Source: Malacoraja senta
Lineage: Eukaryota
DNA: 64,000 nt
Direction of reading: 5' to 3'
NCBI GenBank assembly: GCA_038087875.1
Contig: CM075991.1
Coordinates: forward strand, 186,001 to 250,000
A program made the position numbers and the translations under genes. Below, piece after piece: positions 6,714 to 58,198 of the stretch. Position 1 is the first letter of the stretch, and every line of letters starts with the position of its first letter. The notes below the pieces were generated by a model. That model ran no database searches. It had not been told where the DNA came from and was given only the letters and a program-made list of their open reading frames with translations.

Positions 6714-7190
6714 TTTCCATTTCTTGCACAGTGCAAGGCCAACAACTCATTTCATTTCCATTTCTAGCACAGTGCAAGGCCACCAACTCATTTCCAGAAA
6801 GGTGCAGGCTAACAATTCATTTCAAACACAGTGCAGACTCACAGTTCAGTTCACTCACGGCGTAGAATCACAGTTGTGGACTCAACTCTCACTCACGTCC
6901 TTCCAGAGTGACTGACTCACGTCCGGCCTCCGGGGTTTAATTCCACCAGAAGGGGCGTGACCTTCATCATGGTGAAGGACAGGCGAGAAGACCAATCAGC
7001 TGATCTCACGATTCTTTTAAACATTCATAATTTTTCTTTATTTCACCGATCGGAAAAAAACTTGCGGCGTTTGGAGGAGAGGAGGACGCTAAGTACGGTG
7101 GCGAAAAAATCATAGCGATAGACGGTAGCGTTTTCTCTAAAATGTATTTAGAACGTAGGCAGGAAGTGGTCCAGATGAGACTTTTAGTAA

Positions 7191-8596
7191 TCTATATGAC
7201 TAAAAGTCTGATATTGACCACTTCCTGTTGTTCTGTATATTGATTTTAGAAAAAACGCTGCCACTTACGGCCGTGATTTTTGGCCATCTTACTCAGAGTA
7301 CTCCTCCGCTGCGTAGGACAAGAGGATTTTTCCCATCGATGAAAATTAAAAGTTATTAGTGTTTAAAAAATGTTGAGATTCTCTCACCTGAAGACCACGC
7401 CCCTTCCGGAGGGACTATAAAACCCGGAAGTGTTGAGTGCCTCAGTCAGTCTCTGCAAGATGGGTGAGCGAGAGGGTCATGTCTCTGAGTCTGAGCTGTG
7501 AATAACACTGAACACATGTCTACTAAACTGTGAGTGGTTTTGCTGACCTGTGAGTGCCCTTAATGTGTGTGAAAATATCGTTTGGAAATGCTAAAGCTGT
7601 GTTGCCTTTGGTTTGGAAATGCTAAAGCTGTGTTGCCTTTGGTTTGGAAATGCTAAAGCTGTGTTGCCTTTGGTTTGGAAATGCTAAAGCTGTGTTGCCT
7701 TTGGTTTGGACATGCTAAAGCTGTGTTACGTTTGGTTTGGAAGTGCTAAAGCTGTGTTGCCTTTGGTTTGGAAATGCTAAAGCTGTGTTGCCTAATTAAA
7801 GTTGCCTTGCCTAATTAAAGTTGCCTTGCCTAATTAAAGTTGCCTTGCCTAATTAAATTTGCCTTGCCTTCTATATAATTAAAAGTCTAATCTTGACCAC
7901 TTCCTGTTTGCGCATTATCTTGATTTTAGAGGGGAAAAAACCGCTACCACGTACGGCTGTGGGTTTTGGCTCATCAGGTGCCGAGGATTTTTCCCATCGA
8001 TGCAACATAAAATAATTATTGGTGTTTAAAAAATGTTGAGATTCTCTCTCTTGTCAATCACGGCATGAAGGGCACGCCCCTTCTGGTGGGAGGGGGGAAG
8101 GGAATATAAAACCTAGAAGCGTGGGCATGGCTCAGTCTCTGCAAGATGGAGGAGGGAGCGGTCACGACTTGCTCTCTTTAGTGGCCTTGCACGCTGCTTG
8201 AAATTGTATGAAACTGCACTTGAATTTGTTCGCCTTGCACCCTGCTTCAAGTGGTAAGAAACTGCACTTGTGTTTGGTGGCCTTGCACCCTGCTTGAAAT
8301 GGAATTTCAAGGAATAGCCGTGAGTCAACTGCCAGCCCACCAGCCGTGAGTGAGTGAGATGCCAGCACAACAGGCTTGAGTGAGTGAGCCGCCAGCACAA
8401 GAATCCATTCGGCCCACAATGTCCATACTAGCCATCAGGAAACCAGTTCCTTCAGCCCACAACACAAATACTAGCGCTCCAGAAGCCCACCTCCCACTGT
8501 CCACCAATATTGGTATTGGTGGAGAGGTGGAATATTGCATTGGGGGACCAGCCCTCCCGTGTGATGCTGGGACCCAATGGGTCCCACTTAGTCTAG
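7191..8596 (+). mobile_element. Complete non-autonomous Helitron
   Basis: 5' A|TCTATATGACTAAAAG. 3' hairpin GGGACCC-AAT-GGGTCCC (8569-8585), then CTAG|T. AT target, no TSD. Second internal 5' module at 7870. Confidence 0.88.
7581..7869. repeat. Adjacent 31-bp (~7 copies) and 19-bp (~4 copies) minisatellites inside the Helitron
   Basis: Units TTTGGAAATGCTAAAGCTGTGTTGCCTTTGG and AATTAAAGTTGCCTTGCCT. Confidence 0.95.
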
Positions 8597-8609
8597 TAGT
8601 ATAGATAGA

Positions 8610-11739: not shown

Positions 11740-11795
<56 letters not shown>
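11740..11795 (+). repeat. (TCTA)14 tract at the head of the Helitron array
   Basis: 56-bp perfect tract directly followed by TATACTTTTAAAACTCTC. Confidence 0.97.
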
Positions 11796-11796
<1 letters not shown>

Positions 11797-12167
11797 ATAC
11801 TTTTAAAACTCTCTGGCTGTCGTCCGTCTGTACGTCTGTACATCTGTACGTCTGTACGGCTGTACGTCCAACGTTCTGCTTCACCTGTGCCGCCTTTGAT
11901 ACCGACCCGCGCCCGCGCAGCGCGCGGAAACGCCGATATTTTTTACCGTTTCTAAAGAGGTTACGTTTATCTTTACGAATAGACGATCCTGATTAAATTT
12001 GGTCGTGTTTACGTACGCTTTTTTAAATAAAATACCTCTCCCCCCCCCAAACCAAACATTTCAAAATGTTTAAAAAAAACAGTTCAGCCGTAGAATGTTA
12101 GTAAAGATTCCGTTGTGTGATGTCACAATGCACAATGGTCACAGATGTCCAATCGGAATGGATCCGT

Positions 12168-15164
12168 TTAGAAAAGATAGACAGGAAAGAAAGGGAGGAG
12201 GGGTGGCCCTTTTAATAAGGGAGGGAATAACGGCAATAGAGAGGAAGGATATTGCGTTGAAGGATCAGGATAGTGAAACAGCTTGGGTACAGATAGAGAA
12301 TAACAAGGGGAAAAAAACACTAGTGGGTGTAATTTATAGACCTCCAAATAGCTGTGACGCTGTTAGTCAGAACATAAATCTGCAAATAGTTGACGCATGT
12401 AAAAAGGGAACTGCTGTAATCATGGGGGACTTCAATTTTCATATTAATTGGGCAAACCAAACTGGGCAGGGTAGACTAGAGGAAGAGTTTATAGAATGTA
12501 TTAGAGACGGGTTCCTAGAACAGTATGTCACAGAACCGACAAGGGGGGAGGCAATCTTGGATCTGGTCCTGTGTAATGAAGCAGGATTAATTAAAAATGT
12601 CATAGTTAGGGACTCGTTGGGAACAAGTGACCACAATATGGTCGAATTCCATATTCAAATAGAAGGGGAGCAGGTTGAAACTCAGGCTAGGGTACTTAGT
12701 TTAAATAAGGGGGATTATGAAGGTATGAGGACTGAGCTGATCAAAGTTGACTGGGATAGCAGACTCAAGAATAAGACGGTACATGAGCAGTGGTGTACGT
12801 TTAAGGATCTACTGTATAACCTTCAAGAAAAATTTATTCCTATGAAGAAAAAAAGGGGTAAGGGAAAGAACAGTCAGCCATGGCTCAGTAAAACTATAAA
12901 GGATAGTATTCGGCTGAAGGCAAGGGCATATAAGGTAGCCAGAGATAGTGGGAGGGTAGAGGATTGGGAAGCATTTAAAGGTCAGCAAAAAATAACTAAG
13001 AGATTAATTAAGACGGGGAAAATAGACTATGAAAGGAATTTAGCGAACAACATAAAAACTAATAGTAAGAGTTTTTATAGCTATATAAAAAGAAAAAGGG
13101 TGGCTAAGGTGAACGTTGGTCCATTGGAGGGTGAGACTGGAGAGTTGTTGGTGGGGAACATGGAAATGGCAAAGGCATTAAACGAGTATTTTGTATCAGT
13201 CTTCACCATAGAAGACACAAAAAATATTCCAACGCTGGATAAACAGGGGGCGGTAGGAATGGAGGAGCTAAATACTATTAAGATCACCAAGGAGGTGGTA
13301 TTAGGGAAATTAATGAGACTGAAGGAGGATAAATCCCCTGGGCCTGATGGATTACATCCAAGGGTCTTGAGGGAGATAGCGGTGGGGATTGTGGATGCAT
13401 TGGTGATAATTTTCAAAAACTCCCTGGAGGCAGGAACGGTCCCAGTGGATTGGAAAATGGCCAATGTAACACCTATATTTTAAAAAGGAAGTAAACAGAA
13501 GGCGGGTAACTATAGACCGGTTAGTCTAACATCGGTGGTGGGTAAAATGTTAGAGACAATTATTAAAGAAACACTAACGGGGCACTTGGATAAACATGAC
13601 TTCATCGGACAGAACCAGCATGGTTTTGTGAAGGGGAAGTCCTGTTTAACGAATCTGCTCGAATTCTTTGAGGAAGTAACAACCCGGGTGGATAAAGGGG
13701 AACCGGTGGATGTGGTATACTTGGACTTCCAAAAGGCTTTTGACAAGGTGCCACATAAGAGACTATTGCTAAAAATAAAAAATTATGGGATTGGGGGTAA
13801 TATATTAGCATGGGTAGAGGATTGGCTAACAAATAGGAAGCAGAGAGTGGGGATAAATGGTTCATACTCGGGATGGCAACTGGTAACTAGCGGGGTTCCG
13901 CAAGGGTCGGTGCTGGGACCCCAGTTGTTCACAATTTATATAAATGATTTGGAGGAGGGAACCAAGTGTAATATATCAAAATTTGCGGATGAAACAAAAA
14001 TGGGAGGAAAAGTAGGGGATGAGGAGGATAGGAAGAGTCTGCAAAAGGATATAGATAAGCTAGGTGAGTGGGCAACAACTTGGCAGATGAAATTTAATAC
14101 TAATAAATGTGAAGTCATTCACTTTGGGAAAAAAAATGATAGGGCAAGTTATTTTCTAAATGAGGTGGAGCTGCGTTGTAATGCAACGCAAAGGGATCTA
14201 GGGGTAGTAGTACATGAATCACTAAAAGTTAGTATGCAGGTGCAGCAAGCAATCAGGAAGGCCAATGGAGTTTTGGCCTTTATTGCTAGGGGGATTGAGT
14301 ATAAAAACACGGAGGTCTTGCTGCAGCTGTACACAGTATAAGTGAGATCACATTTGGAATACTGTGTACAGTTCTGGGGTCCATACTTAAGAAAGGATGT
14401 ACTGGCCCTGGAGGCAGTGCAGCGAAGGTTTACAAGATTAATTCCTGCAATGAGGGGATTGACATACGAGGAAAGGTTAAGTAGGCTGGAACTCTACTCT
14501 TTGGAGTTTAGAAGAATGAGAGGCGATCTCATTGAAACATATAAGATCGTGAGGGGCCTTGATCGGGTGGATGCACCGAGGATGTTCCCAATGATCGGGG
14601 AAACTAGAACTAGGGGACATAGTTGTAGAATAAGGGGGGGCTCTTTTAAAACTGAGATGAGGAAGAACTTCTTCACCCAGAGGGTGGTTAATTTATGGAA
14701 TTCACTGCCCCAGGGAGCAGTGGAAGCAGAAACATTAAATATATTTAAGTCTAAAATAGATGGTTTTTTAGCTGCCAAGGGGATAAGGGGCTACGGGGAG
14801 AGGGCAGGGATATGGACCTAGGTATGGTTAGTATAGTAAGACCTGAGTGATCTCCTGGACAAGTGTCGATCGCCTGGATTGGGGTCGGAGAGGAATTTCC
14901 CGGATTTTTTTCCCGAATTGGACCTGGGTTTTTATCCGTTTTTTTGCCTCCCCCAGGAGATCACGCGGTTCTTGGGGTGGAGAGGGGTGATAGCGGTATA
15001 AAGGGGAGGGTAGTGTCTTGTGTTCTGTGTCTTGTGTCTACTGTTTGTGGGTAAGGGTGTCTGTTTAGTGTTCAGCCATGAGCGAATGGCGGTGCGGGCT
15101 CGATGGGCCTGGTGGTCTACTCTCGCACCTACTTTCTATGTTTCTATGTTTCTATGTTTCTATG
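12168..15164 (+). mobile_element. CR1 family C, 5'-truncated, inserted in the Helitron array
   Basis: APE-RT ORFs at 12095-13483, 13535-14341 and 14342-14821. GTTTA on both flanks. (TTCTATGT)n tail. Nearly identical to 52514-55496. Confidence 0.95.
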
Positions 15165-18100
15165 TTTACATACGGCCCCGGCCCCTCCCCCCCCAACCCC
15201 CGCAGCGTTGGGCATTGTGACATCACAAAACGGAACCTTCATTTACATTCTATTGCTGAGAGATGTTTGTTTAACATTTTGAAATTTCCCCATTCCCTAT
15301 CACCCCCACACACGTGGCGACGCCCTGCGACACGTGTGACAAATCGGAATGAATCCGTTTACATGTGCCTTTGCAGCAGCCCCAGCCCCAGCCCCTCCCC
15401 CCCACCCCCGCAGCCTGTGTCGAAGGGCGTCGTCACGTGTGTGGCAATAGAGAAAGAGGATTGGGGGTGATAGGGAATGGGAAACAGATGGACTGTCCCT
15501 ACCCCTCCTACTTCAACTCTCCCTCCCCACTCTTCCCCCTCTCTCCTCTCCCCCTCCCTCCCCTCCCACCCCCTCCCTTCCCCCTTCACCACCCCTATTC
15601 ACCCCCATCTCCCACCCACCCCCTTCACCTCTCTCTTGCACCACTGCCTGCTACCCCTCTGCCCCTCACTCCCCACTGTTCCCACCTCTCTCCCTCCCCC
15701 TCCCTCTCTCCCTCTCTTCCCCCTACTCCTCTCCCCTTCCCCTCATCCCTCACCTTTCTCTCTCTCCCTTCTCTCTCTCTCCCTTCTCTCTCTCCCTTAT
15801 CTCTCTCTCCATTCTCCCTCCCTTCTCTCTCTCTCTCTCTCTCCCTTCTCTCTCTCCCACTTCTCTCTCTCCTTTCACTCTCTCCTCTCTCTCCCTTCTC
15901 TCCCTCACAGCCCGCGACTCGACTCATGCACGCCCGCTCCAACCCCCCCCCCTTCACCTCTCTCCCCCATCCTCTCTTTCCTCTCTCCACCCCTCTCCTC
16001 TCTCCCCCATTCCTCTCCACCCTCCCTCCCCCTCTCCTCTTCCCTCCCCACCCCGTCTCCCTCTCCCCTCTTCTCTCCCCACCCCGTCTTCCTTCCCCCC
16101 CCCTCCCCCCATCCCCCCGAGTGTGTTTGGGGGTGGTTAGTGTGAGTTTGGGGGGTGGTTAGTGTGAGTGTGATGCCGCAACCCGCCCCCCCCTTACCGC
16201 AAACGCGCGTTGGGAAAACAGCACGCCAACAGTCTCTCTGTCTTTAAAATATTAATATAATATCAAGGGGTGTGATGAGTGTGTGTGTTTGTGGGTGCCA
16301 GATTCACACCCCGCAACCCTGCTTTGGAGGTACAGACCCAACGGGTGGTTAGTGTGACGTCACAGCCCCCCGCCCCAAACGCACGTTCGGTGTCCAGACC
16401 CAACGGGTCTGCACTTGGTATGCACTCCCCACTGTTCCCCTCTCCCTCCCCACCTCTCTCCCTCCACCCTCCCTCTCTCCCTCTCTTCCCCCTACTCCTC
16501 TCCCCTTCCCCTCATCCCCCCCCTCTCCCCTCTTCCTGCCCTCCCCGCTCTCCTCCCACTCCAAACTCTCCTCACCCTCCCTCTCACCCACCCTGATCTC
16601 CTCTCCCTCCCCAATCTGTCCCCTTTCCTCCTCCCCCTCTCCCCTCCGTCCCCCTCTTCCCTCCCCTCCCTCCCCTCTTCTCTCCCCACCCCGTCTCCTT
16701 CTCCCCCCCTCCCCTCCTCTCCCCAACCCCGTCTCCCTCTCCCCCACTCCCCCCGCCTGTGTGTTTGGGGGGTGGTTAGTGTGAGTGTGATGCCGCAGCC
16801 GCAGCCCCCCCCCCCAAACGCAAGGTAAACAAAAAAATGAAGTATAAACTCAGCGGGTGCAGCAGCATCTTTGGATCGAAGGAAATAGGCAATGTTTCAT
16901 AACAAAACACGTCTGAAGATGGGTTTCGGCCACAAACATTGCCTATTTCCTTCGCTCCATAGATGCTGCTGCACCCGCTGAATTTCACCACCTTTTTTGG
17001 GTGCACCAGTCTCTCTGTGTCTCCCCTCTCTCTCTCTCTCTGCCCTTCTCTCTTCACAGCCCGCAGCTTAACTCAGGAACACCAGCTCAAAACACCCCCC
17101 TTGACCTATCTCCAACATCCTCTCCTTACCCTCTCCACACCCTCCTCTCTATCCCCCTTCCTCGCACCCCTTCCTCTCTCCCCCTTCCTCTCCCCCTTCC
17201 TCTCCACCCTCCTCCTCCCCCTCTTCAATTTTTTTTAATTCTAGCATTAAATTTTCACTCTCTATTCATTCACGAATAGACGATCCTGATTAAATTTGGT
17301 CGTGTTTAGGTACGCTTTTTAAAATAAAATACCTCTCCCCCCCTCCAAACCAAACATTTCAAAATGTTTAAAAAAACAGCTCAGCCGTAGAATGTTAGTA
17401 AAGATTCCGTTGTGTGATGTCACAATGCACAATGGTCACAGATGTCCAATCGGAATGGATCCATTTACATATGCCTTTCCAGCGGCCCCAGCCCCGGCCC
17501 CTCCCCCCCAACCCCTGCAGCATTGGTCATTGTGACATCACAAAACGGAACCTTCATTTACATTCTATTGCTGAGAGCTGTTTGTTTAACATTTTGAAAT
17601 TTCCCCATTCCCTATCACCCCCACACACGAGGCGACGCCCTGCGACACGTGTGACAAATCAAAATGAATCCGTTTACATATGCCTTTGCAGCACCCACAG
17701 CCCAAGCCCCTCCCCCAACCCCACAGCCTGTGTCGAAGGGCGTCGCCACGTGTGTGGGGGGATAGGGAATGGGGAAATTTCAAAATGTTTTAAAAAAACA
17801 GCTCTCAGCAATAGAATGTTAATGAAGGTTCCGTTTTGTGATGTCACAATGCCCAATGCTCAAAGATGTCCAATCGAAATGAACAAATTTACATATGCCT
17901 TTGCAGCAGCAACAGCACCAGCCCCTCCCACCCACCACCGCAGCCTGTGTCGAAGGGCGGCGTCACGTGTGTGGCAATAGAGAAAGAGGATTGGGGGTGA
18001 TAGGGAATGGGTAACAGATGGACTGTCCCTACCCCTCCTACTTCAACTCTCCCTCCCCACTCTTCCCCCTCTCTCCTCTCCCCCTCCCTCCCCTCCCACA

Positions 18101-21100
18101 CCCTCTCTTCCCCCTCCACCACCCCTCTTCACCCCCATCTCCCACCCACCCCCTTCACCTCTCTCTTGCACCACTCCCCGTTACCCCTCTACCCCTCACT
18201 CCCCACTGTTCCCCTCTCCCTCCCCCACCTCTCTCCCTCCCCCTCCCTCTCTCCCTCTCTCCCCCCTACTCCTCTCCCCTTCCCCTCGTCCCCTCCACCC
18301 CTCTCCCCCCTTCCTGCCCTCCCCGCTCTCCTCCCACTCTCCACTCTCCTCCCCCTCCGTCTCACCCACCCTGATCTCCTCTCCCTCCCCAATCTCTCCC
18401 CTTTCCTCTTCCCCCTCTCCCCTCCCTCCCCCTCTCCTCTTCTCTCCCCACCCCGTCTCCCTCTCCCCTCTTCTCTCCCCACCACGTCTTCCTCTCCACC
18501 CCTCCCCCGCCTGTGTTTGGGGGGTGGTTAGTGTGAGTGTGATGCCGCAGCCCCCCCCTCCCGCAAACGCGCGTTGGGAAAACAGCCCGCCAACAGTCTC
18601 TCTGTCTTTAAGACAGAACAGCAGATGCTTGAAAATCAAAGGTACACAAAAAAATGCTTCATAACCTCAGCGGGTGCAGCAGCACCTATATCAAAAGAAA
18701 TAGACAACGTTTCGTGAAAAAAACCGTCTGAGGATGGGTTTCCGCCAAAAGCATTGCCTATTTCCTTCACTCCATAGATGCTGCTGCACCCGCAGTGTTT
18801 CTCGAGTTTTATTGTGTGTACCAGTCTATCTGTATCTCCCCTCTCTCTCTCTCTCTGCCCTTCTCTCTTCACAGCCCGCGGCTCAACTCATGCACGCCTG
18901 CTCCAACCCACCCCCTTCACCTCTCTCCCCCATCCTCTTCTTCCTCTCTCCACCCCTCTCCTCTCTCACCCTCCTCTCTCCCCACCTTCCTCACCCCCCT
19001 TCCTCTCAACCCTCCTCCTCCCCCACCTCACAATTTTTTTTTCTAACATTAAATTTTCTCTCTCTGCACCACCCCCCCTCGAGACGCACCTGAGAGGTGA
19101 TGGCTATTCGTCAGTGGATAGGGTGGAGATGGAATAAAAGAAGAAAATTAAAATATTAATTTAATATCAAGGGGTGTGATGAGTGTGTGTGTTTGTGGGT
19201 GCCAAATTCACACCCCGCAACCCTGCTTTGGAGGTACAGACCCAACGGGTGGTTAGTGTGACGTCACAGCCCCCGCCCCAAACGCACGTTCGATGTCCAG
19301 ACCCAACGGGTCTGCACTTGGTCTGCCTGACTTGTGTCTGCCATCCGCCTGACGTGTCACAAATCCCCTTTGATACCGCTCTAGGCCCACACAGCACGCG
19401 GAAACGCCAATATTTTTTACCGTTTCTAAAGAGATTACGTTTATCTTTACGAATAGACAATCCTGATTAAATTTGGTCGTGTTTATGTACACTTTTTAAA
19501 ATAAAATACCTCTCCCCCCCCAAACCAAACATTTCAAAATGTTAAAAAAAACAGCTCAGCCATAGAATGTTAGTAAAGATTCCGTTGTGTGATGTCACAA
19601 TGCACAATGCTCACAGATGTCCAATCAGAATGAATCCGTTTACATATGCCTTTGCAGCAGCCACAGCCCCAGCCCCTCCCCCCCACCCCCGCAGCCTGTG
19701 TCGAAGGGCGTCGTCACGTTTGTGGCAATAGAGAAAGAGGATTGGGGGTGAGAGGGAATGGGAAACAGATGGACTGTCCCTACCCCTCCTACTTCAACTC
19801 TCCCCCCCCACTCTTCCCCCTCTCTCCTCTCCCCCTCCCTCCCCTCCCACCCCCTCTCTTCCCCCTCCACCACCCCTCTTCACCCCCATCTCCCCCCCAC
19901 CCCCTTCACCTCTCTCTTGCACCACTCCCCGCTACCCCTCTGCCCCTCACTCCCCACTGTTCCCCTCTCCCTCCCCCACCTCTCTCCCTCCCCCTCCCTC
20001 TCTCCCTCTCTACCCCTACTCCTCTCCCCTTCCCCTCATCCCCTTCCCCCCTCTCCCCCCTTCCTGCCCTCCCCGCTCTCCTCCCACTCCAAACTCTCCT
20101 CCCCATCCCTCTCACCCACCCTGATCTCCTCTCCCTCCCCAATCTCTCCCCTTTCCTCTTCCCCCTCTCCCCTCCCTCCGCCTCTCCTCTTCTCTCCCCA
20201 CCCCGTCTCCCTCTCCCCTCTTCTCTCCCCACCCCGTCTTCCTCTCCCCCCCTCCCCCCTCCCCCCGAGTGTGTTTGGGGGTGGTTAGTGTGAGTTTGGG
20301 GGGTGGTTAGTGTGAGTGGGATGCCGCAGCCCCCCCCCCCCTCCCGCAAACGCGCGTTGGGAAAACAGCCCGCCAACAGTCTCTGTCTTTAAGACGGAAC
20401 TGCAGATGCTGGAAAATCGAAGGTACACAAAAAAAAACTGTATATCATCAGCGGGTTCAGCAGCATCTATGGATCAAAGAAAATATGCACCCTTTCGGTA
20501 GAAACCATTCTGAGGATGGGCTTCGACCCAAAGCGTTGCCTATTTCCTTCGCTCCATAGATGCTGCTGCACCCGCTGTGTTTCTCCAGCTTTTTTTTGTG
20601 TACAAGTCTCTCTCTCTCTCTCTCTGCCCTTCTCTCTTCACAGCCCGCGGCTCAACTCATGCACGCCCGCTCCAACCCCCCCCCCCCCTTCACCTCTCTC
20701 CCCCATCCTCTCTTTCCTCTCTCCACCCCTCTCCTCTCTCCCCCTTCCTCTCCACCCTCCTTCCCCCTCTCCTCTTCTCTCCCCACCCCGTCTTCCTCTC
20801 CCCTCTTCTCTCCCCACCCCGTCTTCCTCTCCCCCCCCTCACCCCATCCCCCCGAGTGTGTTTGGGGGTGGTTAGTGTGAGTTTGGGTGTGGTTAGTGTG
20901 AGTGTGATGCTGCAGCCCATCCCCCCTCCCGCAAACGCGCGTTGGGAAAACAGCCCGCCAAAAGTCTCTCTGTCTTTAAGACGGAACTACAGATGCTGGA
21001 AAATCGAAGGTACACAAAAAAACCTGTATATCATCAGCGGGTGCAGCAGCATCTATGGATCGAAGTAAATAGGCAACGTTTCGGTAGAAAACCAGTCTGA

Positions 21101-24100
21101 GGATGGGCTTCGGCCCAAAGCGTTGCCTATTTCCTTCGCTCAATAGATGCTGCTGCACCCGCTGTGTTTCTCAAGCTTTTTTTTGTGTACCAGTCTCTCT
21201 GTCTCTCCCATCTCTCTCTCTCTCTCTCTCTGCCCTTCTCTCTTCACAGCCCGCGACTCGACTCATGCACGCCCGCTCCAACCCCCCCCCCCCTTCACCT
21301 CTCTCCCCATCCTCTCTTTCCTCTCTCCACCCTCTCCTCTCTCCCCCTTCCTCTCGACCCTCCTCCTCCCCCTCTTCAAATTTTTTTTTCTAACATTAAA
21401 TTTTCCCTCTGCCCCAACACCTCTAGACGCATCTGAGAGGTGAGGGCTATTCGTCAGTGGATAGGGTGGAGATGGGATAAAAGAAGCAAATTAAAAAATT
21501 AAAATAATATCAAGGGGTGTGATGAGTTTGTGTGTTTGTGGGTGCCGGATTACGTGCTTTGGAGGAAAGGGGATGATTAGTGTGACGCCACAGCCTTCCC
21601 CCCCCCCCCCCCCACAAACGCACGTTCGGTGTCCAGACCCAACGGGTCTGCACTTGGTCTAGTATACTTTTAAAACTCTCTGGCTGTCGTCCGTCTGTAC
21701 GTCTGTACGTCTGTACGTCCATACGCCGCCTTTGATACCGCCCCTGGCCCACACAGCGCGCGGAAAGGCCCATATTTTTTACCATTTCCAAAGAGATGAC
21801 ATTTATCTTTACGAATAGCCACTCCTGATTAAATTCGGTCCTGTTTATGTACACGTTTTTTAATAATATCCATCCCGCCCCCCACCCCCATGTGATTTTC
21901 TCCGATTGTCTCCGATTTTCTCCGAAAACGACGCCATCTTTTTTTCCCGATTTTCTCCGAAAACGACGCCATCTTTTTTTCGCCGATTTTCTCCGATTTG
22001 TTCCGAAAACGACGCCATCTTTTTTTCAGCAGATTTTCACCCCGGGGTCTGAAGCACGTTCGGGAACAACACCCCGGGGTGTCAAGCACTTGGTCTAGTA
22101 TACTTTTAAAACTCTCTGGCTGTCGTCCGTCTGTACGTCTGTACGTCCAATGTTCTGCTTGACTTGTCCCGCCTTTGATACCGCCCCGCGCCCGCGCGGC
22201 GCGCAGAAACGCCGATATTTTTTACCGTTTCTAAAGAGGTTACGTTTATCTTTACGAATAGACGATCCTGATTAAATTCGGTCGTGTTTAGGTACGCTTT
22301 TTAAAATAAAATACCTCTCCCCCTCCCCAAACCAAACATTTCAAAATGTTTAAAAAAACAGCTCAGCCGTAGAATGTTAGTAAAGTTTCCGTTGTGTGAT
22401 GTCACAATGCACAATGGTCACAGATGTCCAATCGGAATGGATCCATTTACATATGCCTTTGCGGCGGCCCCAGCCCCGGCCCCCCCCCCCCAACCCCCGC
22501 AGCATTGGGCATTGTGACATCACAAAACGGAACCTTCATTTACATTCAATTGCTGAGAGCTGTTTGTTTAACATTTTGAAATGTCCCCATTCCCTATCAC
22601 CCCCACACACGTGGCGACGCCCTGCGACACGTGTGACAAATCGAAATGAATCCGTTTACATATGCCTTTGCAGCACCCACAGCCCAAGCCCCTTCCCCCA
22701 ACCCCGCAGCCTGTGTCGAAGGGCGTCGCCACGTGTGTGGGGGGGATAGGGAATGGGGAAATTTCAAAATGTTTTAAAAAAAACAGCTCTCAGCAATAGA
22801 ATGTTAATGAAGGTTCCGTTTTGTGATGTCACAATGCCCAATGCTCAAAGATGTCCAATCGAAATGAACCAATTTACATATGCCTTTGCAGCAGCAACAG
22901 CTCCAGCCCCTCCCCCCCACCCCCGCAGCCTGTGTCGAAGGGCGTCGTCACGTGTGTGGCAATAGAGAAAGAGGATTGGGGGTGATAGGGAATGGGTAAC
23001 AGATGGACTGTCCCTACCCCTCCTACTTCAACTCTCCCTCCCCACTCTTCCCCCTCTCTCCTCTCCCCCTCCCTACCACACCCTCTCTTCCCCCTCCACC
23101 ACCCCTCTTCACCCCCATCTCCCACCCTCCCCCTTCACCTCTCTCTTGCACCACTCCCCGTTACCCCTCTGCCCCTCACTCCCCACTGTTCCCCTCTCCC
23201 TCCCCCACGTCTCTCCCTCCCCTCCCTCTCTCCCTCTCTCCCCCCTACTCCTCTCCCCTTCCCCTCATCCCCTCCCCCCCTCTCCCCCCTTCCTGCCCTC
23301 CCCGCTCTCCTCCCACTCCCCACTCTCCTCCCCCTCCCTCTCACCCACCCTGATCTCCTCTCCCTCCCCAATCTCCCCCTTTCCTCTTCCCCCTCTCCCC
23401 TCCCTTCCCCTCTCCTCTTCTCTCCCCACCCGTCTCCCTCTCCCCTCTTCTCTCCCCACCACGTCTTCCTCTCCACCCCTCCCCCGCCTGTGTTTGGGGG
23501 GTGGTTAGTGTGAGTGTGATGCCGCATCCCCCCCCTTCCGCAAACACGCGTTGGGAAAACAGCCCGCCAACAGTCTCTCTGTCTTTAAGACAGAACTGCA
23601 GATGCTTGAAAATCAAAGGTACACAAAAAAATGCTTCATAACCTCAGCGGGTGCAGCAGCATCTATATCAAAAGAAATAGACAACGTTTCGTGAAAAAAC
23701 CCGTCTGAGGATGGGTTTCCGCCAAAAGCATTGCCTATTTCCTTCACTCCATAGATGCTGCTGCACCCGCAATGTTTCTCGAGTTTTATTGTGTGTACCA
23801 GTCTATCTGTCTCTCCCCTCTCTCTCTCTCTCTTCACAGCCCGCGGCTCAACTCATGCACGCCAGCTCCAACCCACCCCCTTCACCTCTCTCCCCCATCC
23901 TCTTCTTCCTCTCTCCACCCCTCTCCTCTCTCACCCTCCTCTCTCCCCACCTTCCTCACCCCCCTTCCTCTCAACCCTCCTCCTCCCCACCTCACAATTT
24001 TTTTTTCTAACATTAAATTTTCTCTCTCTGCACCACCCCCCCCTCGAGACGCACCTGAGAGGTGATGGCTATTCGTCAGTGGATAGGGTGGAGATGGAAT

Positions 24101-27100
24101 AAAAGAAGAAAATTAAAATATTAATATAATATCAAGGGGTGTGATGAGTGTGTGTGTTTGTGGGTGCCAGATTCACACCCCGCAACCCTGCTTTGGAGGT
24201 ACAGACCCAACGGTTGGTTAGTTTGACGTCACAGCCCCCCGCCCCAAACGCACGTTCGGTGTCCAGACCCAACGGGTCTGGACTTGGTCTGCCTGACTTG
24301 TGTCTGCCATCCGCCTGACGTGTCACAAATCCCCTTTGATACCGCTCTAGGCCCACACAGCACGCGGAAACGCCAATATTTTTTAACGTTTCTAAAGAGA
24401 TTACGTTTATCTTTACGAATAGACAATCCTGATTAAATTTGGTTGTGTTTATGTACACTTTTTTAAATAAAATACCTCTCCCCCCCCCAAACCAAACATT
24501 TCAAAATGTTAAAAAAACAGCTCAGCCATAGAATGTTAGTAAAGATTCCGTTGTGTGATGTCACAATGCACAATGCTCACAGATGTCCAATCGGAATGAA
24601 TCCGTTTACATATGCCTTTGCAGCAGCCACAGCCCCAGCCCCTCCCCCCCCCCAACCCCGCAGCCTGTGTCGAAGGGCGTCGTCACGTTTGTGGCAATAG
24701 AGAAAGAGGATTGGGTGTGATAGGGAATGGGAAACAGATGGACTGTCCCTACCCCTCCTACTTCAACTCTCCCTCCCCACTCTTCCCCCTCTATCCTCTC
24801 CCCCTCCCTCCCCTCCCACCCCCTCTCTTCCCCCTCCACCACCCCTCTTCATCCCCATCTCCTCCCCACCCCCTTCACCTCTCTCTTGCACCACTGCCCG
24901 CTACCCCTCTGCCCCTCACTCCCCACTGTTCCCCTCTCCCTCCCCCACCTCTCTCCCTCCCCCTCCCTCTCTCCATCTCTTCCCCCTACTCCTCTCCCCT
25001 TCCCCTCATCCCCTCACCCCTCTCCCCCCTTCCTGCCCTCCCCGCTCTCCTCCCACTCCAAACTCTCCTCCCCCTCCCTCTCACCCACCCTGATCTCCTC
25101 TCCCTCCCCAATCTCTCCCCTTTCCTCTTCCCCCTCTCCCCTCCCACCCCTCTCCTCTTCACTCCCCACCCCGTCTCCCTCTCCCCTCTTCTCTCCCCAC
25201 CCTGTCTTCCTCTCCCCCCCCTCCCCCCTCCCCCCGAGTGTGTTCGGGGGTGGTTAGTGTGAGTTTGGGGGTGGTTAGTGTGAGTGGGATGCCGCAGCCC
25301 CCCCCCCCCCTCCCGCAAACGCGCGTTGGGAAAACAGCCCGCCAACAGTCTCTCTGTCTTTAAGACGGAACTGCAGATGCTGGAAAATCGAATGTACACA
25401 AAAAAAACTGTATATCATCAGCGGGTTCAGCAGCATCTATGGATCAAAGAAAATATATTACGTTTCGGTAGAAAACCATTCTGAGGATGGGCTTCGACCC
25501 AAAGCGTTGCCTATTTCCTTCGCTCCATAGATGCTGCTGCACCCGCTGTGTTTCTCCAGCTTTTTTTTGTGTACCAGTCTGTCTCTCTCTCTCTCTGCCC
25601 TTCTCTCTTCACAGCCCGCGGCTCAACTCATGCACGCCCGTTCCAACCCCCCCCCCCTTCACCTCTCTCCACATCCTCTCTTTCCTCTCTCCACCCCTCT
25701 CCTCTCTCCCCCTTCCTCTCCACCTTCCTTCCCCCTCTCCTCTTCTCTCCCCACCCCGTCTTCCTCTCCCCTGTTCTCTCCCCACCCCGTCTTCCTCTCC
25801 ACCCCTCACCCCATCCCCCCGAGTGTGTTTGGGGGTGGTTAGCGTGAGTTTGGGGGGTGGTTAGTGTGAGTGTGATGCCGCAGCCCACCCCCCCTCCCGC
25901 AAACGCGCGTTGGGAAAACAGCCCGCCAACAGTCTCTCTGTCTTTAAGACGGAACTACAGATGCTGGAAAATCGAAGGTACACAAAAAAAACCTGTATAT
26001 CATCAGCGGGTGCAGCAGCATCTATGGATCGAAGTAAATAGGCAACGTTTTGGTAGAAAACCAGTCTGAGAATGGGCTTCGGCCCAAAGCGTTGCCTATT
26101 TCCTTCGCTCAATAGATGCTGCTGCACCCGCTGTGTTTCTCAAGCTTTATTTTGTGTACCAGTCTCTCTGTCTCTCCCATCTCTCTCTCTCTCTCTCTCT
26201 GCCCTTCTCTCTTCACAGCCCGCGACTCGACTCATGCACGCCCGCTCCAACCCCCCCCTTCACCTCTCTCCCCATCCTCTCTTTCCTCTCTCCACCCCTC
26301 TCCTCTCTCCCCCTTCCTCTCGACCATACTCCTCCCCCTCTTCAAATTTTTTTTTTTCTAACATTAAATTTTCCCTCTGCCCCAACACCTCTAGACGCAT
26401 CTGAGAGGTGAGGGCTATTCGTCAGTGGATAGGGTGGAGATGGGATAAAAGAAGCAAATTAAAAAAATAAAATAATATCAAGGGCTGTGTGTTTGTGGGT
26501 GCCGGATTACGTGCTTTGGAGGAAAGGGGGTGATTAGTGTGACGCCACAGCCTTCCCCCCCCCACCCCCCCCCACAAACGCACGTTCGGTGTCCAGACCC
26601 AACGGGTCTGCACTTGGTCTAGTATACTTTTAAAACTCTCTGGCTGTCGTCCGTCTGTACGTCTGTACGTCCGTACGCCTGCCTTTGATACCGCCCCTGG
26701 CCCACACGGCGCGTGGAAAGGCCCATATTTTTTACCATTTCCAAACAGATTACATTTATCTTTACGAATAGCCACTCCTGATTAAATTCGGTCCTGTTTA
26801 TGTATATGTTTTAAAAATAAAATCCACCCCCCCCCCCCCACCCCTATGTGATTTTCTCCGATTGTCTCCGATTTTCTCCGAAAACGACGCCATCTTTTTT
26901 TCTCCGATTTCTCTGAAAACGACGCCATCTTTTTTTCGCCGATTTTGTCTGATTTTTTCCGACCACGACGCCATCTTTTTTTCCGCAGATTTTCACCCCG
27001 GGGTCTGAAGCACGTTCGGAACAACACCCCGGGGTGTCAAGCACTTTCGGGACCAGACCCAACGGGTCTGCACTTGGTCTAGTATACTTATAAAACTCTG

Positions 27101-27107
27101 ATCTTGG

Positions 27108-27108
<1 letters not shown>

Positions 27109-27141
<33 letters not shown>

Positions 27142-27296
27142 CATGTGTGTGTGTGTGTGTGTGTGGGCATGTGTGTGTGTGTGTGTGTGTGTGTGGGCGT
27201 GTGTGTGTGTGTGTGCGTGCGTGTGTGTGTGGGCGTGTGTGTGTGTGTATGCGTGTGTGTGTGTGTGTGGGCGTGTGTGTGTGTGTGTATGTGTGT

Positions 27297-27339
<43 letters not shown>

Positions 27340-27394
27340 CGTGTGTGTGTGTGTGTGTGTATGCGTGTGTGAGTGTGTGTGTGTGTGTGTGTGT
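27109..27394. repeat. Interrupted (GT)n microsatellite inside a Helitron 5' region
   Basis: Direct inspection. Confidence 0.97.
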
Positions 27395-27889
27395 ATACTA
27401 TCATACTGCTCGGAAAAACGACACCCTGACGATAAAATTGTTACAAATTCCTATAGAGATTTATCCGGTGAAGTCAAAAATCGGATTACCTCAGCATTTC
27501 GAGATTTATTTCTTGAGTTATTAATCAAAATGTACAACATTTTCAAATATTTTAGAAAATGAACGGCTTTGGCTGATGACGTGATGACATTTCAATGGCT
27601 GCACGTTGTACTCACGCGCTGCGAGTCACGTCGCCCGGCCGTGCCGCACGCAAAACCTTTGAAAAATACCCCGCAGTCTTCTTGCTCGCTCTGCGAGTGA
27701 CGTCATCAGCCGACCACCCGTTCTCGGGCTCTGACTGCAGCCTGAAGCCTGAAGCCCTTCCCTCTGACGACACCCACCGCCCCGCCCCCCAACCCCTCAA
27801 ACTCTACCCCCGTCCCTCTCCCCCCCCCCACTGCTCCCTCTCTGCCCCCTCACGCTCTCTCTCGCCCCCTATCTCCCATCCCTCCGCCC

Positions 27890-28520
27890 TCTCTGTGCGT
27901 CTGTGTCCCTCTCTGTGCCTCTGTGTCCCTCTCTATGCCTGCGTGTCCCCCTCTAAGACTCTGCGTTCCTCTCTGTGACCCACTCTGTGCCTCTGTCCCT
28001 CTCTTGCCTCTGTGTCCCTGTCTCCCTCTCTGTGCCGTGGTGTCCCTCTCTATACCTCTGTGTCCCTTTCTGTGTATCTGTCCCTCTCTGTGCCTCTGTG
28101 TCCCTCTATGTGCCTCTGTGTACCTCTGTGTCGCCCTGTGTCCCTCTCTGTGCCTTTGTGTCCATCTGTGTGCCTCTGTGTCCCTATGAGTGCCTCTGTG
28201 TCCATTTGTGTGCATATGTGTCCCCCTATGTGCCTCTGTGCCCCTGTGTCCCGCTGTCGCTCTCTGTGCCTTTGCGACCCTCTGTGTCCCTGTGTCCCCG
28301 TCACCCCCGTGTCCCTCTGCGTCCTTCTCTGTCTCCATGTGTGCCTCTGTGTCCCTATGTGTGCCTCTGTGTGTCTATGGTTCCCCCTGTGTGCCCACTG
28401 TGTGCCTCTGTGTCCCTCCCTGTGCCTCTGTGTCCTTCTCTGTGCCTCTGTATCCCTCTCTGTGCGTCTGTGTCCCTCTCTGTGCCTCTGTGTCCTTCTC
28501 TGTGCCGCTGTGTCCCTCTC
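27890..28520. repeat. Degenerate ~10-bp (CTCTGTGTCC/CTCTGTGC) minisatellite
   Basis: Direct inspection. Confidence 0.9.
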
Positions 28521-28837
28521 TCCATATCCCCTCCCTATCTAGCCACGCCTGCGAGTTGGGGGCTTTGAGTGAGTGTATAGGGCGGGGAATGGGATAAAAA
28601 GGAGTGAATGAATAATATTAATATATCAATGGGGGTGGTTAGTGCATGTGTGTGGGGGGGTTAGTGTGTGTGTATGTGAAGGGTTGGTTAGTGTGTGTGT
28701 GACGCCGCAGGCCACCTCATCCCCCCACAACCGCGCGTTTTCATACTTTAATGATCCACCCTATCTCCACACATCCTGTTGATTTACCCGAACATCCCAT
28801 ACGGACCTGGTGGGACTACAGGTCTCTGTACATCTGT

Positions 28838-29290
28838 TCCGGTGGCGCTGCGAGTCAGATGCCTCGCCTGCAGCGGGTTCATTGTTCGACTTTTTTTATT
28901 TTTATTATGTCCGAAAGTATGTTTTAGTCTTTCTCTGTATGTCTTTTGAGGGAGGGAATAGGGGGAATCCGTTTGACTGGCACCTACTTCGACGGAGATG
29001 CGACTTTCTTCCTTGTCGTTTCTTGCCCCCCCCCCCCCCCCCCGCCGCCTGACAGCTGGTTTGGTGCAGCCTATCCCGGAGTCGGGCCCAGAGCTTCAGC
29101 GACGGCGCAGCGGGGACCTTAACGTCGCGGAGTGAGGCATCCGCTTGCCGGGGGTTGCGGAAGAAGGGCTCCGACTGCTGGAATGCGGCCTACAACATCT
29201 TGGAGCCTCGATCTGTGGAGCTTCTGGCGGCAGCCGTGGAGCGGACTTTCCATCGTGGAGCGGGCGATCCCTCGCTGGGGTTCGCCGGAG
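28838..29290 (+). mobile_element. 5' part of a GC-rich non-autonomous retroelement, related to 38554-38888 and 39479-40217
   Basis: Starts CCGGTGGCGC...GCCTCGCCT like 39479. Shares TGCGGCCTACAACATCTTG with 38555. Confidence 0.5.
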
Positions 29291-31250
29291 AAGCATACAA
29301 ATTTGCCAGAAAAAGCAGCCTACCAGAGGACTGGGAGAAATTCAGAGTCAAGCAGAGGAGGACAAAGGGCTTAATTAGGAAAGGGGTAATAGATTATGAA
29401 AGAAAACTGTCAGGGAACATAAGAACTGACTGCAAAAGTTTTTATAGATATGTGAAGAGAAAAAATATTAGTTAAAACAAATGTAGGTCCCTTGCAAGTC
29501 AGAAACAGGTGAATTGATCATGGGGAACAAGGACATGGCAGACCAATTGAATAACTACTTTGGTTCTGTCTTCACTAAGGAAGACATAAATAATCTGCCG
29601 GAAATAGCAGGGGATCGGGGGTCAAAGGAACTGAGTGAAATCCAGGTTAGTCGGGAAGTGGTGTTAGGTAAATTGAATGGATTAAATGCCGATAAATCCC
29701 CAGGGCCAGATAGGCTGCATCCCAGGGTGCTTAAGGAAGTAGCCCCAGAAATAGTGGATGCATTAGTGATAATTTTTCAAAATTCTTTACATTCTGGAGT
29801 AGTTGCTGAGGATTGGAGGGTACCTAATGTAACCCCACTTTTTAAAAAGGGAGGGAGAGAGAAAACGGGGAATTACAGACCAGTTAGTCTAACATCGGTA
29901 GTGAGGAAAATGCTAGTCAGTTATTAAAGATAGGATAGCAGCACATTTGGAAAGTGGCGAAATCATTGGACAAAGTCAGCATGGATTTATGAAAGGTAAA
30001 TCATGTATGACGAATCTTATAGAATTTTTCGAGGATGTAACTAGTAGAGTGGATAAGGGATAACCAGTGGATGTGGTATATCTGGGCTTTCAGAAGGCTT
30101 TCGACAAGGTCCCACATAAGAGATTACTATGCAAACTTAAAACACACGGTATTGGGGGTTCAGTATTGATGTGGATAGAGAACTGGCTGGCAGACAGGAA
30201 GCAAAGAGTAGGAGTAAACGGGTCCATATCAGAATGGCAGGCAGTGACTAGTGGGGTATCACAAGGCTCAGTGCTGGGACCCCAGCTATTTACAATATAT
30301 ATTAATGATTTGGACGAGGGAATTGAATGCAACATCTCCAGGTTTGGGGATGACACGAAGCTGGGGGCAGTGTTAGCTGTGAGGAGGATGCTAGGAGGCT
30401 GCAAGGTGACTTGGGTAGGTTGGGTGAGTGCGCAAATGAATGGCAGATGCAGTATAATGTGGATAAATGTGAGGTTCTCCACTTTGGTGGCAAGAACAGG
30501 AAAGTAGACTATTATCTGAATGGTGTCCGATTAGGAAACGGGGAGATGCAACGAGACCTGGGTGTCATGGTACACCAGTCATTGAAAGTAGGCATGCAGG
30601 TGCAGCAGCAGTGAAGAAAGCGAATGGTATGTTAGCATTCATAGCAAAAGGATTTGAGTATAGGAGCAGGGAGGTTCTACTACAGTTGTACAGGGCCTTG
30701 GTGAGACCACACCTGGAGTATTGTGTACAGTTGTGGTCTCCTAATCTGAGGAAATACATTTTTGCCATAGAGGGAGTTCAGAGAAGGTTCACCAGACTGA
30801 TTCTTGGGATGGCAGTACTTTCATGTGAAGAAAGGCTGGATAGACTCGGCTTGTACTCGCTAGAATTTAGAAGATTGAGGGGGAATCTTATAGAAACTTA
30901 CAAAATTCTTAAGGGGTTGGGCATGCTAGATGCAGGAAGATTGTTCCCGATGTTGGGGAAGTCCAGAACAAAGGGTTACTGTTTAAGGATAAAGGGGAAG
31001 TCTTTTAGGACCGAGATGAGAAAATATTTTTCACACAGAGAGTGGTGAATCTGTGGAATTCTCTGCCACAGAAGGTAGTTGAGGCCAGTTCATTGGCTAT
31101 ATTTAAGAGGGAGTTAGATGTGGCCCTTGTGGCTAAAGGGATCGGGGGGTATGGAGGGAAGGCAGGCACAGGGTACTGAGTTGGATGGTCAGCCATGAGC
31201 ATGCTTGAATTGCCGAATGGCCTGCTCCTGCTTCTATTTTCTATGTTTCT
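29291..31250 (+). mobile_element. CR1 family B, 5'-truncated and frameshifted
   Basis: [26 protein letters not shown] and HLEYCVQ motifs. TTTCTATGTTTC tail. Confidence 0.93.
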
Positions 31251-40217: not shown

Positions 40218-40863
40218 GGATAAATGGGAAAGTCGGCTATAGGCTGTGGGCCGAGGTTCGTGACCCAACTTACGGAACTACATGATATTTCCACATATTG
40301 TGTAAAACATATTATATAAATCATCCTTGAAACTCGTCAAGAACAAAACTTGCAATTTTTTATTAAATTAGAGAAAAAACAGAAAATGGTCGGGTATTTT
40401 TAGTCCAATCAAAGCACGTTTAACATCACGCGCTTTGTTTAAGGCTAGCTAGGCAGGGAGCAAACATCATGGCTGAGAGTGCTTCTACTGATGCCTGTTT
40501 TACTGGAGATTCCGATGGAGGTTCTTTGTTTCTCTGTGGAAAACATGTCGTGGAAACTTGCAGCATGGTAATTGAATTTAGTGAGAAAAGCATTAAGAAG
40601 TCTGAAGAATGTGCAGCTTAGTGGATAGAAGGAACAAAGCCTTGAAGGCAAAGTTGCTGCTGAGGGTGCTGCAACACAAAGAGGACAGCCAAGTCGTGAA
40701 CCAGTCAAATTTGCGAACCAACTGGAACTGAAAGGTAAGATCCAAAGTCTGAATTTATGAAAAATTAATCTGTATGGACTTTAATTAATTTAATTGCATC
40801 CTTTTATAATGTGAAAAATGAGATTTGCATGCTGTACATTCACTCATTCATTCATTCATGTGA

Positions 40864-46446: not shown

Positions 46447-46625
46447 CTACGATTTTTAAGCCTTAATAACTTTTGTAATATTCTACCGATCGTAACAATT
46501 TAAACACAAACCGAAGTGCACAAAATGAGAGTTTTAGTTATGTAATTGCCAGCAGGGCCGTATTTACGTATAAGCTAGACAAGCTTAAACTTAGGGCCTC
46601 GAGATCTAGGGCCTTGAGATTGGCC
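46447..46625. mobile_element. Helitron 5' stub (minus strand) followed by a probable hAT/MITE terminus
   Basis: ATGAGAGTTTTAGTTA matches the Helitron 5' ends at 7175 and 58175. CAGGGCCGTATTTAC at 46552 resembles hAT-type termini. Confidence 0.45.
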
Positions 46626-50449: not shown

Positions 50450-50810
50450 TCCCACACACACTCACACCCTCCATCTCACACACACACACACACCATCTCG
50501 CAGACACACACACCCTCCATCTCTCTCTCACACACCACCCTCCATCTCGCACACACACTCCACATCTCCCTCTCAATCACACACACTACCTCACACATAC
50601 ACCCTCCATTTCTCACACACACACACACCCTCCATCTCACCCACACCCTCCATCTCCCTTTCTCACACACATACCCTCCATCTCACACAAACACCCTCCA
50701 TCTCTCTCTCTCACACACACACAAACCCTCCATCTTACACACACACACTCCATCTCTCACACTCACACACACCCTCCATCTCTCTCACACACACCATCCA
50801 TCTCTCTCAC
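50450..50810. repeat. CA/CT-rich satellite, (CACACACCCTCCATCT)n-like
   Basis: Direct inspection. The satellite resumes after the CR1 at 55628. Confidence 0.9.
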
Positions 50811-57769: not shown

Positions 57770-58198
57770 ACATACGACAGTGAAACTCTCGATTCTACTC
57801 ACGTCCGACTTTTGAACTCAGGTCCGATTTCTGGACTGAGCGCGACTTCCGGAATGAACGCGACTTCCGGAATGAGCGCGACCTCTGGACTGAGCGCGAC
57901 TTCCGGACTCACACACACACACACCCTCCGGGGTTGTATTCTCCTCGCCCCCAGAAAGGGCATTACCATCATGGTGAGATAGGCGATAAGACCAATCTGG
58001 TGTTCCCTCAATTTTTAAACCTACATTAATTTTCTATTATTTCACCGACCGGAATAAAACTTGGTGCGCTTGGAGCAGAGGAGAACGGTTAGTAACATGG
58101 CGAAAAGAATCATAGCGATGTAGGGTACCGTTTTTGCGCAAGTTTAATTACAACACAGACCGGATGTCTCAAGATGAGAGTTTTAGTGATAGTATAGA
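57770..58198 (-). mobile_element. Helitron 5' fragment (minus strand) with an 18-bp tandem repeat
   Basis: A|TCTATACTATCACTAAAACTCTC terminus, homologous to 6920-7190. GCGCGACTTCCGGACTGA-like units at 57830-57910. Confidence 0.75.

What the first reader, a model, noticed from the sequence alone, without database searches (positions are those of the whole stretch)
11740..27100. Helitrons apparently inserting into their own 5' ends: the (TCTA)14 tract may be a stack of orphaned termini
Seen: the element 5' end is TCTATATACTT. All four intact internal junctions (21662, 22098, 26622, 27082) read hairpin-CTAG|TATACTT, missing exactly the first 4 nt TCTA, and the array is headed by (TCTA)14. Known: Helitrons insert between A and T without a TSD, and simple rolling-circle concatemers should read CTAG|TC. 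Inference: each new copy inserted at TCTA^TATAC of the previous one, leaving TCTA upstream. Self-targeting would then build both the array and the microsatellite. The 14 units outnumber the visible junctions, so slippage or deletion must also have acted.
Basis: partly seen in the sequence, partly recalled or inferred. Interest (0 to 1): 0.72.

Follow-up and report, generated by a model that had tools for sequence, protein, structure and literature searches.

The report
Helitrons stacked in their own heads
Gene-less rolling-circle transposons in a vertebrate genome seem to have jumped again and again four bases into the front end of their relatives, which probably seeded, but did not wholly build, the TCTA repeat that heads the pile; self-insertion of this kind is known from fungi, the fixed four-base step is the new detail.

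Summary
Confirmed: (TCTA)14 at 11740-11795 heads a pile of non-autonomous canonical Helitrons, and 4 of 4 intact junctions read CTAG|TATAC, lacking exactly TCTA. They are not four proven events: two 4.85 kb halves are 96% alike, so 2-4 are independent. Still, they join unlike units; a second Helitron pair in the window is nested at an A^T nine bases into a 5' end; and contigs of public runs carry the same junction, also leading into another family, while no CTAG|TC junction is listed. Best reading: insertion at TCTA^TATAC grows the pile at its head and leaves one TCTA per event. Visible history explains only 5-9 of 14 units; slippage or heads carried in from other loci must supply the rest. 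The tract-versus-junction correlation could not be tested (no genome). Stacked 5' termini from self-insertion are published for Fusarium Helitrons, and this scan noted 5'-end nesting in other genomes. New here: a fixed +4 offset that turns the stack into a microsatellite. New variant of a known kind; interest 0.45.

The parts
11740..11791 (+). 13 TCTA units upstream of the first element's own terminus; candidate orphaned termini plus later expansion
   Evidence: no TCTATC or GATAGA found in 27083-29300
11792..17268 (+). Unit A0: head element with intact 5'-TC terminus; rearranged relative of A1/A2, interrupted by a LINE; no intact 3' end
   Evidence: shared modules differ from A1 at 28 of 719 and from A2 at 23 of 689 clean sites
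12168..15167 (+). 5'-truncated LINE (endonuclease and RT frames broken by stops, 8-mer repeat tail) inserted in A0; 34 substitutions in 2985 sites against the copy at 52513-55497
   Evidence: PF14529, PF00078; the label CR1 is recalled
16385..16419 (+). Damaged internal 3' end (hairpin kept, CTAG lost)
17269..21662 (+). Unit A1: composite non-autonomous Helitron, about 153 nt of the 5' end lost; damaged internal 3' end at 19324; intact hairpin-CTAG at 21662
21663..22098 (+). Unit B1, 436 nt, starts TATAC (no TCTA); 29 nt shorter at the 3' end than B2, lacking the last hairpin
22099..26622 (+). Unit A2, 4524 nt, starts TATAC; damaged internal 3' end at 24290; intact hairpin-CTAG at 26622
26623..27082 (+). 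Unit B2, 460 nt, starts TATAC; intact hairpin-CTAG at 27082
27083..28741 (+). Unit C, a different family ((TG)n and 10-mer repeats inside), starts TATAC; 3' end lost; presumed first resident
7191..8596 (+). Separate related Helitron composite (5' tips at 7191 and 7870, hairpin-CTAG at 8596) between A and T without target duplication, nine bases inside the 5' end of a minus-strand Helitron
8597..8609 (-). Displaced 5' tip of the minus-strand target element, with two TCTA units; its body continues at 7190 and below
58165..58198 (-). 5' tip of a lone related Helitron: A, then a single TCTA

Best explanation
A head-growing pile of non-autonomous canonical Helitrons. Shown: termini, junction form, unit order. 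Inferred: an unseen RepHel transposase joins an incoming element at the A^T between bases 4 and 5 of a resident 5' end (TCTA^TATAC). The resident's TCTA stays upstream, its body follows the newcomer's CTAG, and the newcomer's intact end becomes the next target, so C came first and A0 last; some steps may have moved A+B as one read-through block. Likely cause (inferred, untested): the 5' end is a near-perfect 4-nt repeat (TCTA TATA), so an enzyme that binds a 5' end and normally cuts A^TCTA can slip four bases and cut A^TATA, helped by the AT-rich 3' side that Helitrons prefer. Each event adds one TCTA; about 5-6 units arose so, which passes the slippage threshold of about 4, and slippage and/or import of multi-TCTA heads gave the rest.
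For: 4 of 4 junctions at the same offset, of three kinds (A|B, B|A, B|C). Related tips start with TC. Independent nesting at +9 with clean A|TC and CTAG|T borders. In 4 of 13 listed runs laid on 21616-21880: contigs run across the junction without a difference in X13 (29+41 letters) and X1 (29+24 letters), both under the tool's 31-letter bar on at least one side; 62 contigs in X11 and 12 in X12 leave the reference just after AAAACTCT into GT repeats, which I read as the same junction leading into another family; a T>A variant at 21669, the C-type tip, is in 67 and 36 contigs; no row for TCTA put in, or two bases left out, at the junction in tables 4 and 5c. 3' ends followed by mixed flanks also occur (58 and 17 contigs, agreement 0.37 and 0.49, no TCTA consensus). 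Uniform choice among the AT sites of a growing head would put 2, 3 or 4 events all at the innermost site with p 0.083, 0.017, 0.003. B1/B2 differ at 14 of 300 clean sites against 55 of 3216 for A1/A2 (p 0.002), more than one block duplication predicts. No TCTA remnant downstream of the array.
Against: The B/A difference falls to p 0.06 without CpG changes and B is CpG-rich (7.9 vs 3.1 per 100), so a block duplication is not excluded and only two events may be independent. 14 units exceed the 5-9 accountable. The second nesting is at +9 and in the opposite orientation, which AT-richness alone could give; the +4 site is not the most AT-rich in the units (31 of 198 AT sites of A match or exceed it). 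Contigs gave no usable view of other heads (7 and 3 loose contigs near 21671; 143 loose-end rows and 8031 pieces not shown), short contigs may be clipped instead of gapped, and a junction inside an amplified composite is not a new event. The element with the two-unit head at 8602-8609 shows no follower unit in the window. No transposase was seen and no empty site could be read.
Confidence: 0.55

Rival explanations
1. One or two chance nestings made the junctions; unequal exchange or rolling-circle copying of an A+B block multiplied them, and the TCTA tract is an ordinary microsatellite grown by slippage from the terminus, with little input from orphaned ends.
For: 4.85 kb halves 96% alike; A1/A2 slightly closer to each other (18 of 747) than to A0 (28 of 719, 23 of 689); tract perfect and longer than any count of units; GATA-type tracts mutate fast once past about 4 units (PMC3812793).
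Against: Even then A|B and B|C need two events at the same offset; contigs suggest the junction with another downstream family; a lone TCTA is below the slippage threshold, and this is the only long tract of its kind in 64 kb; purity does not discriminate (chance of no substitution 0.27-0.63).
Confidence: 0.2
2. Nested insertion is real but not self-targeting: the 5' tip is hit because it is a short AT-rich patch in GC-rich elements within a Helitron-dense region, as expected from the general AT preference.
For: Helraiser prefers AT-rich DNA, most on the 3' side of the site (PMC4778049 section 10); the second nesting is at +9 in reverse orientation; earlier scan notes judged similar piles short of proof of targeting (untested).
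Against: 1830 of 9078 oriented AT sites in the window are as AT-rich; offsets 0 and +6 are not listed in four runs; 0 of 4 junctions use them.
Confidence: 0.15
3. This subfamily is nicked four bases in, so its units really begin at TATAC; CTAG|TATAC is its circle junction, and the pile landed at the edge of a pre-existing GATA-type microsatellite.
For: About half of recovered Helraiser circles had aberrant junctions in one assay (PMC5876387); no lone A- or B-type head was seen in the window or clearly in contigs.
Against: One circle cannot give B|C or junctions into a third family; related tips align from TC; flanks behind 3' ends show no TCTA consensus; no TCTA remnant behind the array, though C's 3' end is deleted.
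Confidence: 0.08

Closest known systems
FoHeli elements of Fusarium oxysporum with multiple 5' termini (Chellapan et al. 2016, PMC5148889: passages and section 10 read; PMC13342296: passages)
   Same: Self-insertion near the 5' end is proposed to stack 5' termini (31, 65, 73 or 85 nt units; up to five termini in one copy); three Helitrons in tandem are discussed as double insertion into a 5' end; multi-head composites transpose.
   Different: FoHelis are non-canonical (Helitron2-like) and fungal; their orphan units are tens of bases and variable. Here the elements have TC/CTAG ends, the offset is 4 nt, the stack is a microsatellite, and the complementary shortened bodies are seen in place.
Head-to-tail Helitron dimers and arrays with CTAG|TC junctions: Helraiser circles (PMC4778049, passages and section 10; PMC5876387, passages) and the adjacent maize pair (Du et al. 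2008, PMC2267711, passages)
   Same: Head-to-tail order, no target duplication; the maize pair are unlike elements explained by consecutive insertion at a terminus.
   Different: Their junctions keep the whole 5' end (offset 0); here 4 of 4 lack TCTA and bases are left at the head.
Tandem transposon dimers by double insertion (McGurk and Barbash 2018, PMC5932611, passages)
   Same: Target preference makes dimers that can then expand by unequal exchange.
   Different: There a host target is kept by target-site duplication; here the target is the element's own 5' end and is renewed by the newcomer.
Microsatellite birth from transposons (PMC3812793, passages)
   Same: A mobile element supplies the seed, slippage expands it past about 4 units.
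   Different: The two routes in the passages read are retrotransposon tails and mutation of proto-repeats; stepwise addition of one unit per insertion is not among them.

Membership tests
Canonical Helitron (Helitron1), non-autonomous | 5'-TC terminus | tested here: met
   Head unit and 4 related tips start TCTATA; the 4 internal units lack the first 4 nt.
Canonical Helitron (Helitron1), non-autonomous | CTRR-3' terminus | tested here: met
   CTAG at 21662, 22098, 26622, 27082, 8596.
Canonical Helitron (Helitron1), non-autonomous | Short palindrome just before the 3' end | tested here: met
   7-8 bp stem in 4 of 5 intact ends; absent at 22098.
Canonical Helitron (Helitron1), non-autonomous | Insertion between A and T without target duplication | tested here: met
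   Direct for 7191-8596, where the flanks close to an intact 5' end; inferred for the array junctions; outer site unreadable because C's 3' end is lost.
Canonical Helitron (Helitron1), non-autonomous | An autonomous RepHel partner with matching ends | not testable with these tools
   No genome. Pfam scan of 20 of 97 long frames, 5 of them non-LINE frames of the array, gave no Rep or helicase.
Helentron / Helitron2 (DINE-1-like) | Insertion in TT or TTTT|T | tested here: not met
   Borders are A|TC and CTAG|T; rule taken from PMC5148889.
Helentron / Helitron2 (DINE-1-like) | Subterminal inverted repeats | not tested
   No dedicated search; self-BLAST rows of 80 nt or more show no end-to-end inverted match. 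The 8-mer repeat near the 5' end recalls DINE-1 (from memory).
Rolling-circle concatemer | Precise CTAG|TC junctions between like units | tested here: not met
   0 of 4 junctions; units of three kinds; no such row in four runs.
Self-inserted Helitron with stacked 5' termini (FoHeli type) | Repeated 5' terminal segment upstream of an intact element | tested here: inconclusive
   (TCTA)13 fits in form but a 4-nt unit cannot be told from slippage.
Self-inserted Helitron with stacked 5' termini (FoHeli type) | Bodies lacking just that segment behind the newcomer's 3' end | tested here: met
   4 of 4 junctions; second case at +9.
Self-inserted Helitron with stacked 5' termini (FoHeli type) | Multi-head copies transposed to other sites | not testable with these tools
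   No genome; contigs did not show heads.

The most novel reading that the evidence does not exclude
The transposase of this family targets its own 5' end at a fixed +4 register as a rule, so arrays grow with polarity and every event adds exactly one TCTA; such Helitrons are then a genome-wide source of GATA/TCTA microsatellites in this vertebrate lineage, and short heads are a tally of insertion events.
Probability: 0.3. Interest if true: 0.7.

Novelty: new variant of a known kind. Interest (0 to 1): 0.45.

Why it matters
If general, it gives a route to microsatellite birth that needs no slippage at the start (one unit per transposition until the threshold of about 4 is passed), shows that head-to-tail Helitron arrays can be ordered records of insertion instead of rolling-circle concatemers, and offers a sharp, testable clue to how RepHel picks its target: by binding a 5' end. 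It would also make 5' boundaries of such families ambiguous for annotation. If the offset is not enriched genome-wide, it is one more nested Helitron pile.

Tried and rejected
No assembly is held, so the genome-wide tally and empty sites could not be done. A degenerate 3'-end pattern found 0 matches in viral and 0 in metagenome contigs; the junction pattern 0 in prokaryote genomes; a double-TCTA head pattern found 1 metagenome match, with no likeness to the family beyond the pattern, dropped as chance. Summed contig depth (up to 2.5 million at the hairpin, 1.05 million behind the junction in X11) is no copy number and was not used as a ratio. The lack of loose ends at 21663 was not used against TC heads: such contigs would match only a short stretch. 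The loose-end consensus before 21671 (7 and 3 contigs) is too mixed to read as a TCTA head. Purity of the tract does not date it. Positions where B1 and B2 differ overlap variants that A-type copies also carry, so they do not show separate B masters. A later 4-nt deletion at CTAG|TC junctions was rejected: it would have to recur identically in unlike junctions. Three two-unit 8-mers of the same repeat class in other phases lie away from Helitron tips, so the two-unit head at 8602-8609 is only suggestive (about 0.017 per head by chance). Searches found no paper on a fixed 4-nt offset or on Helitron-seeded TCTA tracts; the library lacks most subscription papers, Repbase entries were not available, and the supplements of PMC5148889 (Table S6, Figs S11-S13) and PMC13342296 (Fig. 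S5) were not read and may hold shorter offsets. One search listed nothing on Helitron arrays in cartilaginous fish; one search did not return the Helitron transposase structure paper (recalled only).
Full report
Setting. The window is vertebrate-type repeat DNA rich in LINE fragments with endonuclease, RT and GDSL-type frames. The repeat tails look like those of cartilaginous fish; that label, and the name CR1, are recalled and come from no call. No assembly is held.

Observation. The head is 14.0 perfect TCTA units at 11740-11795, and the four junctions read CTAG|TATACTT at the stated places. Three ends have a 7-bp hairpin 12 nt before the end; the end at 22098 has lost it and is 29 nt shorter than its sister at 27082. 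The array is A0 (11792-17268, with a 3 kb LINE), A1 (17269-21662, 5' end lost), B1 (21663-22098), A2 (22099-26622), B2 (26623-27082) and C (27083 to about 28741, 3' end lost). A and B share about 230 nt of 5' sequence at about 81%; C shares only the tip. Three damaged 3' ends sit inside the A units. None of the 5 non-LINE array frames scanned has a Pfam match: the units are non-autonomous.

Where the element begins. A profile of the tips finds 11 places in the window; besides the five array tips, four are clear related tips, one is a remnant at 46541 and one is noise. The tips at 7191, 7870 and 58198 start with one TCTA; the split tip at 8597-8609 has two. C aligns with them only if TCTA is put in front. 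No lone A- or B-type copy was available.

How many events. A1+B1 and A2+B2 are 96% alike over 4850 bases. On clean sites A1/A2 differ at 55 of 3216 and B1/B2 at 14 of 300 (p 0.002), but p is 0.06 without CpG changes and B is CpG-rich. A0 is 3.9% and 3.3% from A1 and A2 where these are 2.4% apart. So A+B may have been duplicated or moved as a block, or the units came one by one: two to four independent junctions. Even the minimum, A|B and B|C, joins unlike units at the same offset, which a single circle cannot give; Helraiser circles have precise CTAG|TC joints (PMC4778049, passages), though about half were aberrant in one assay (PMC5876387, passages).

A second case in the window. The Helitron composite 7191-8596 has A|TC and CTAG|T borders; its flanks close to an intact 5' end of a minus-strand relative, cut at the A^T after base 9. 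This shows A^T insertion without duplication and a second hit in a 5' tip, at another offset and orientation. Random choice among AT sites makes such hits unlikely (p about 4e-6 for 3 of 8; 6e-5 among AT-rich sites), with the caveat that the window was selected and the tally is mine.

Outside evidence. Thirteen runs hold part of 21380-22330; four were laid on 21616-21880, all as contigs. In X11 and X12 (one organism label, one study) 5630 and 2369 contigs fit, so the family is abundant. Contigs cross the junction without a difference in X13 (another organism label; 29+41 letters) and X1 (29+24), short of the tool's bridging bar; X1 may be the window's source and X13 may hold the orthologous site. 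62 and 12 contigs leave the reference right after the shared tip into GT repeats; as only 15-17 letters of tip match, I infer that they include the upstream CTAG, that is the same junction into another family. No row shows TCTA put in or two bases left out at the junction, so offsets 0 and +6 are under 1 in 100 or clipped. 58 and 17 contigs show 3' ends followed by mixed flanks with no TCTA consensus, against targeting of microsatellites. Heads of other copies were not visible, and 143 loose-end rows were not shown.

The tract. One TCTA per unit gives 5 (four junctions plus A0's own), 6 with the lost A0|A1 join, at most 9 with the damaged inner ends; 14 are present. Tetranucleotide slippage sets in at about 4 units (PMC3812793, passages), and Fusarium Helitrons transpose with several heads (PMC5148889, section 10), so both can add units without junctions. 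Every TCTA^TCTA is also an AT site, yet 0 of 4 junctions use one (uniform choice: p 0.083 to 0.003 for 2 to 4 events), which points to the innermost site being chosen, or to the tract having grown late. No remnant lies behind the array, but C's end is deleted.

Mechanism. Shown: termini, offsets, order, one clean A^T nesting. Inferred: insertion at TCTA^TATAC with head-ward growth; a four-base register slip of a transposase bound to a 5' end, aided by the known liking for AT-rich DNA on the 3' side (PMC4778049 section 10); seeding then slippage. I give this 0.55, amplification of one or two junctions with an ordinary microsatellite 0.2, untargeted AT preference 0.15, a family starting at TATAC 0.08.

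What is known. Self-insertion that stacks 5' termini is described for FoHeli (units of 31-85 nt, PMC5148889; up to five termini, PMC13342296, passages). Consecutive insertion giving CTAG|TC is described in maize (PMC2267711, passages), and double insertion as a source of tandem elements in Drosophila (PMC5932611, passages). Earlier notes of this scan report 5'-end nesting of Helitrons in other genomes (unchecked). Searches found no report of a fixed 4-nt offset or of a TCTA tract seeded this way; the library is partial and supplements were not read.

Verdict. A real, clean example of Helitron self-nesting with an unusual fixed offset; the link to the microsatellite is plausible as a seed and untested as a rule. 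New variant of a known kind, interest 0.45.

Noticed in passing
window 7191-8596 (+) and 8597-8609 / 6927-7190 (-): Second Helitron nest: a composite with two 5' tips (7191, 7870) inserted nine bases into the 5' end of an oppositely oriented relative, making an apparent palindrome at 7003-7379.
   Followed up: yes
window 12168-15167 and 52513-55497: Two LINE copies 98.8% alike; each sits inside a Helitron-like element (A0, and apparently the tandem-repeat body of the element that starts at 58198).
   Followed up: partly
window 26990-27082 and 22035-22098: The 3' end of B is built of about 30-nt hairpin-bearing repeats, three in B2 and two in B1, that is stacked 3' ends; the three-unit form also shows in loose ends of public contigs.
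   Followed up: partly
window 16822-17012, 18639-18827, 20419-20609, 21006-21196, 23616-23804, 25390-25580, 25974-26165: A roughly 190-nt imperfect palindrome is carried seven times inside the A units, in five of seven cases shortly after a worn 3'-like module; it may be a captured SINE-like piece (label recalled).
   Followed up: no
window 46517-46541 (-): Remnant resembling a related Helitron 5' region without its first bases and not preceded directly by CTAG; unexplained.
   Followed up: partly
window 50453-50812 and 55628-57763: Long 22-mer tandem repeat forming the body of the minus-strand element that starts at 58198; no hairpin-CTAG end for it was found in the window.
   Followed up: partly
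window 58403-58957 and 63376-63928; 60385-60591: A 555-nt direct duplication at 96.6% and a 104-nt tandem duplication at 99%.
   Followed up: no
window 1295-3899, 40859-43508, 46685-48558, 43585-45249, 61677-62632: Several related LINE copies at 85-96% identity, in both orientations.
   Followed up: no
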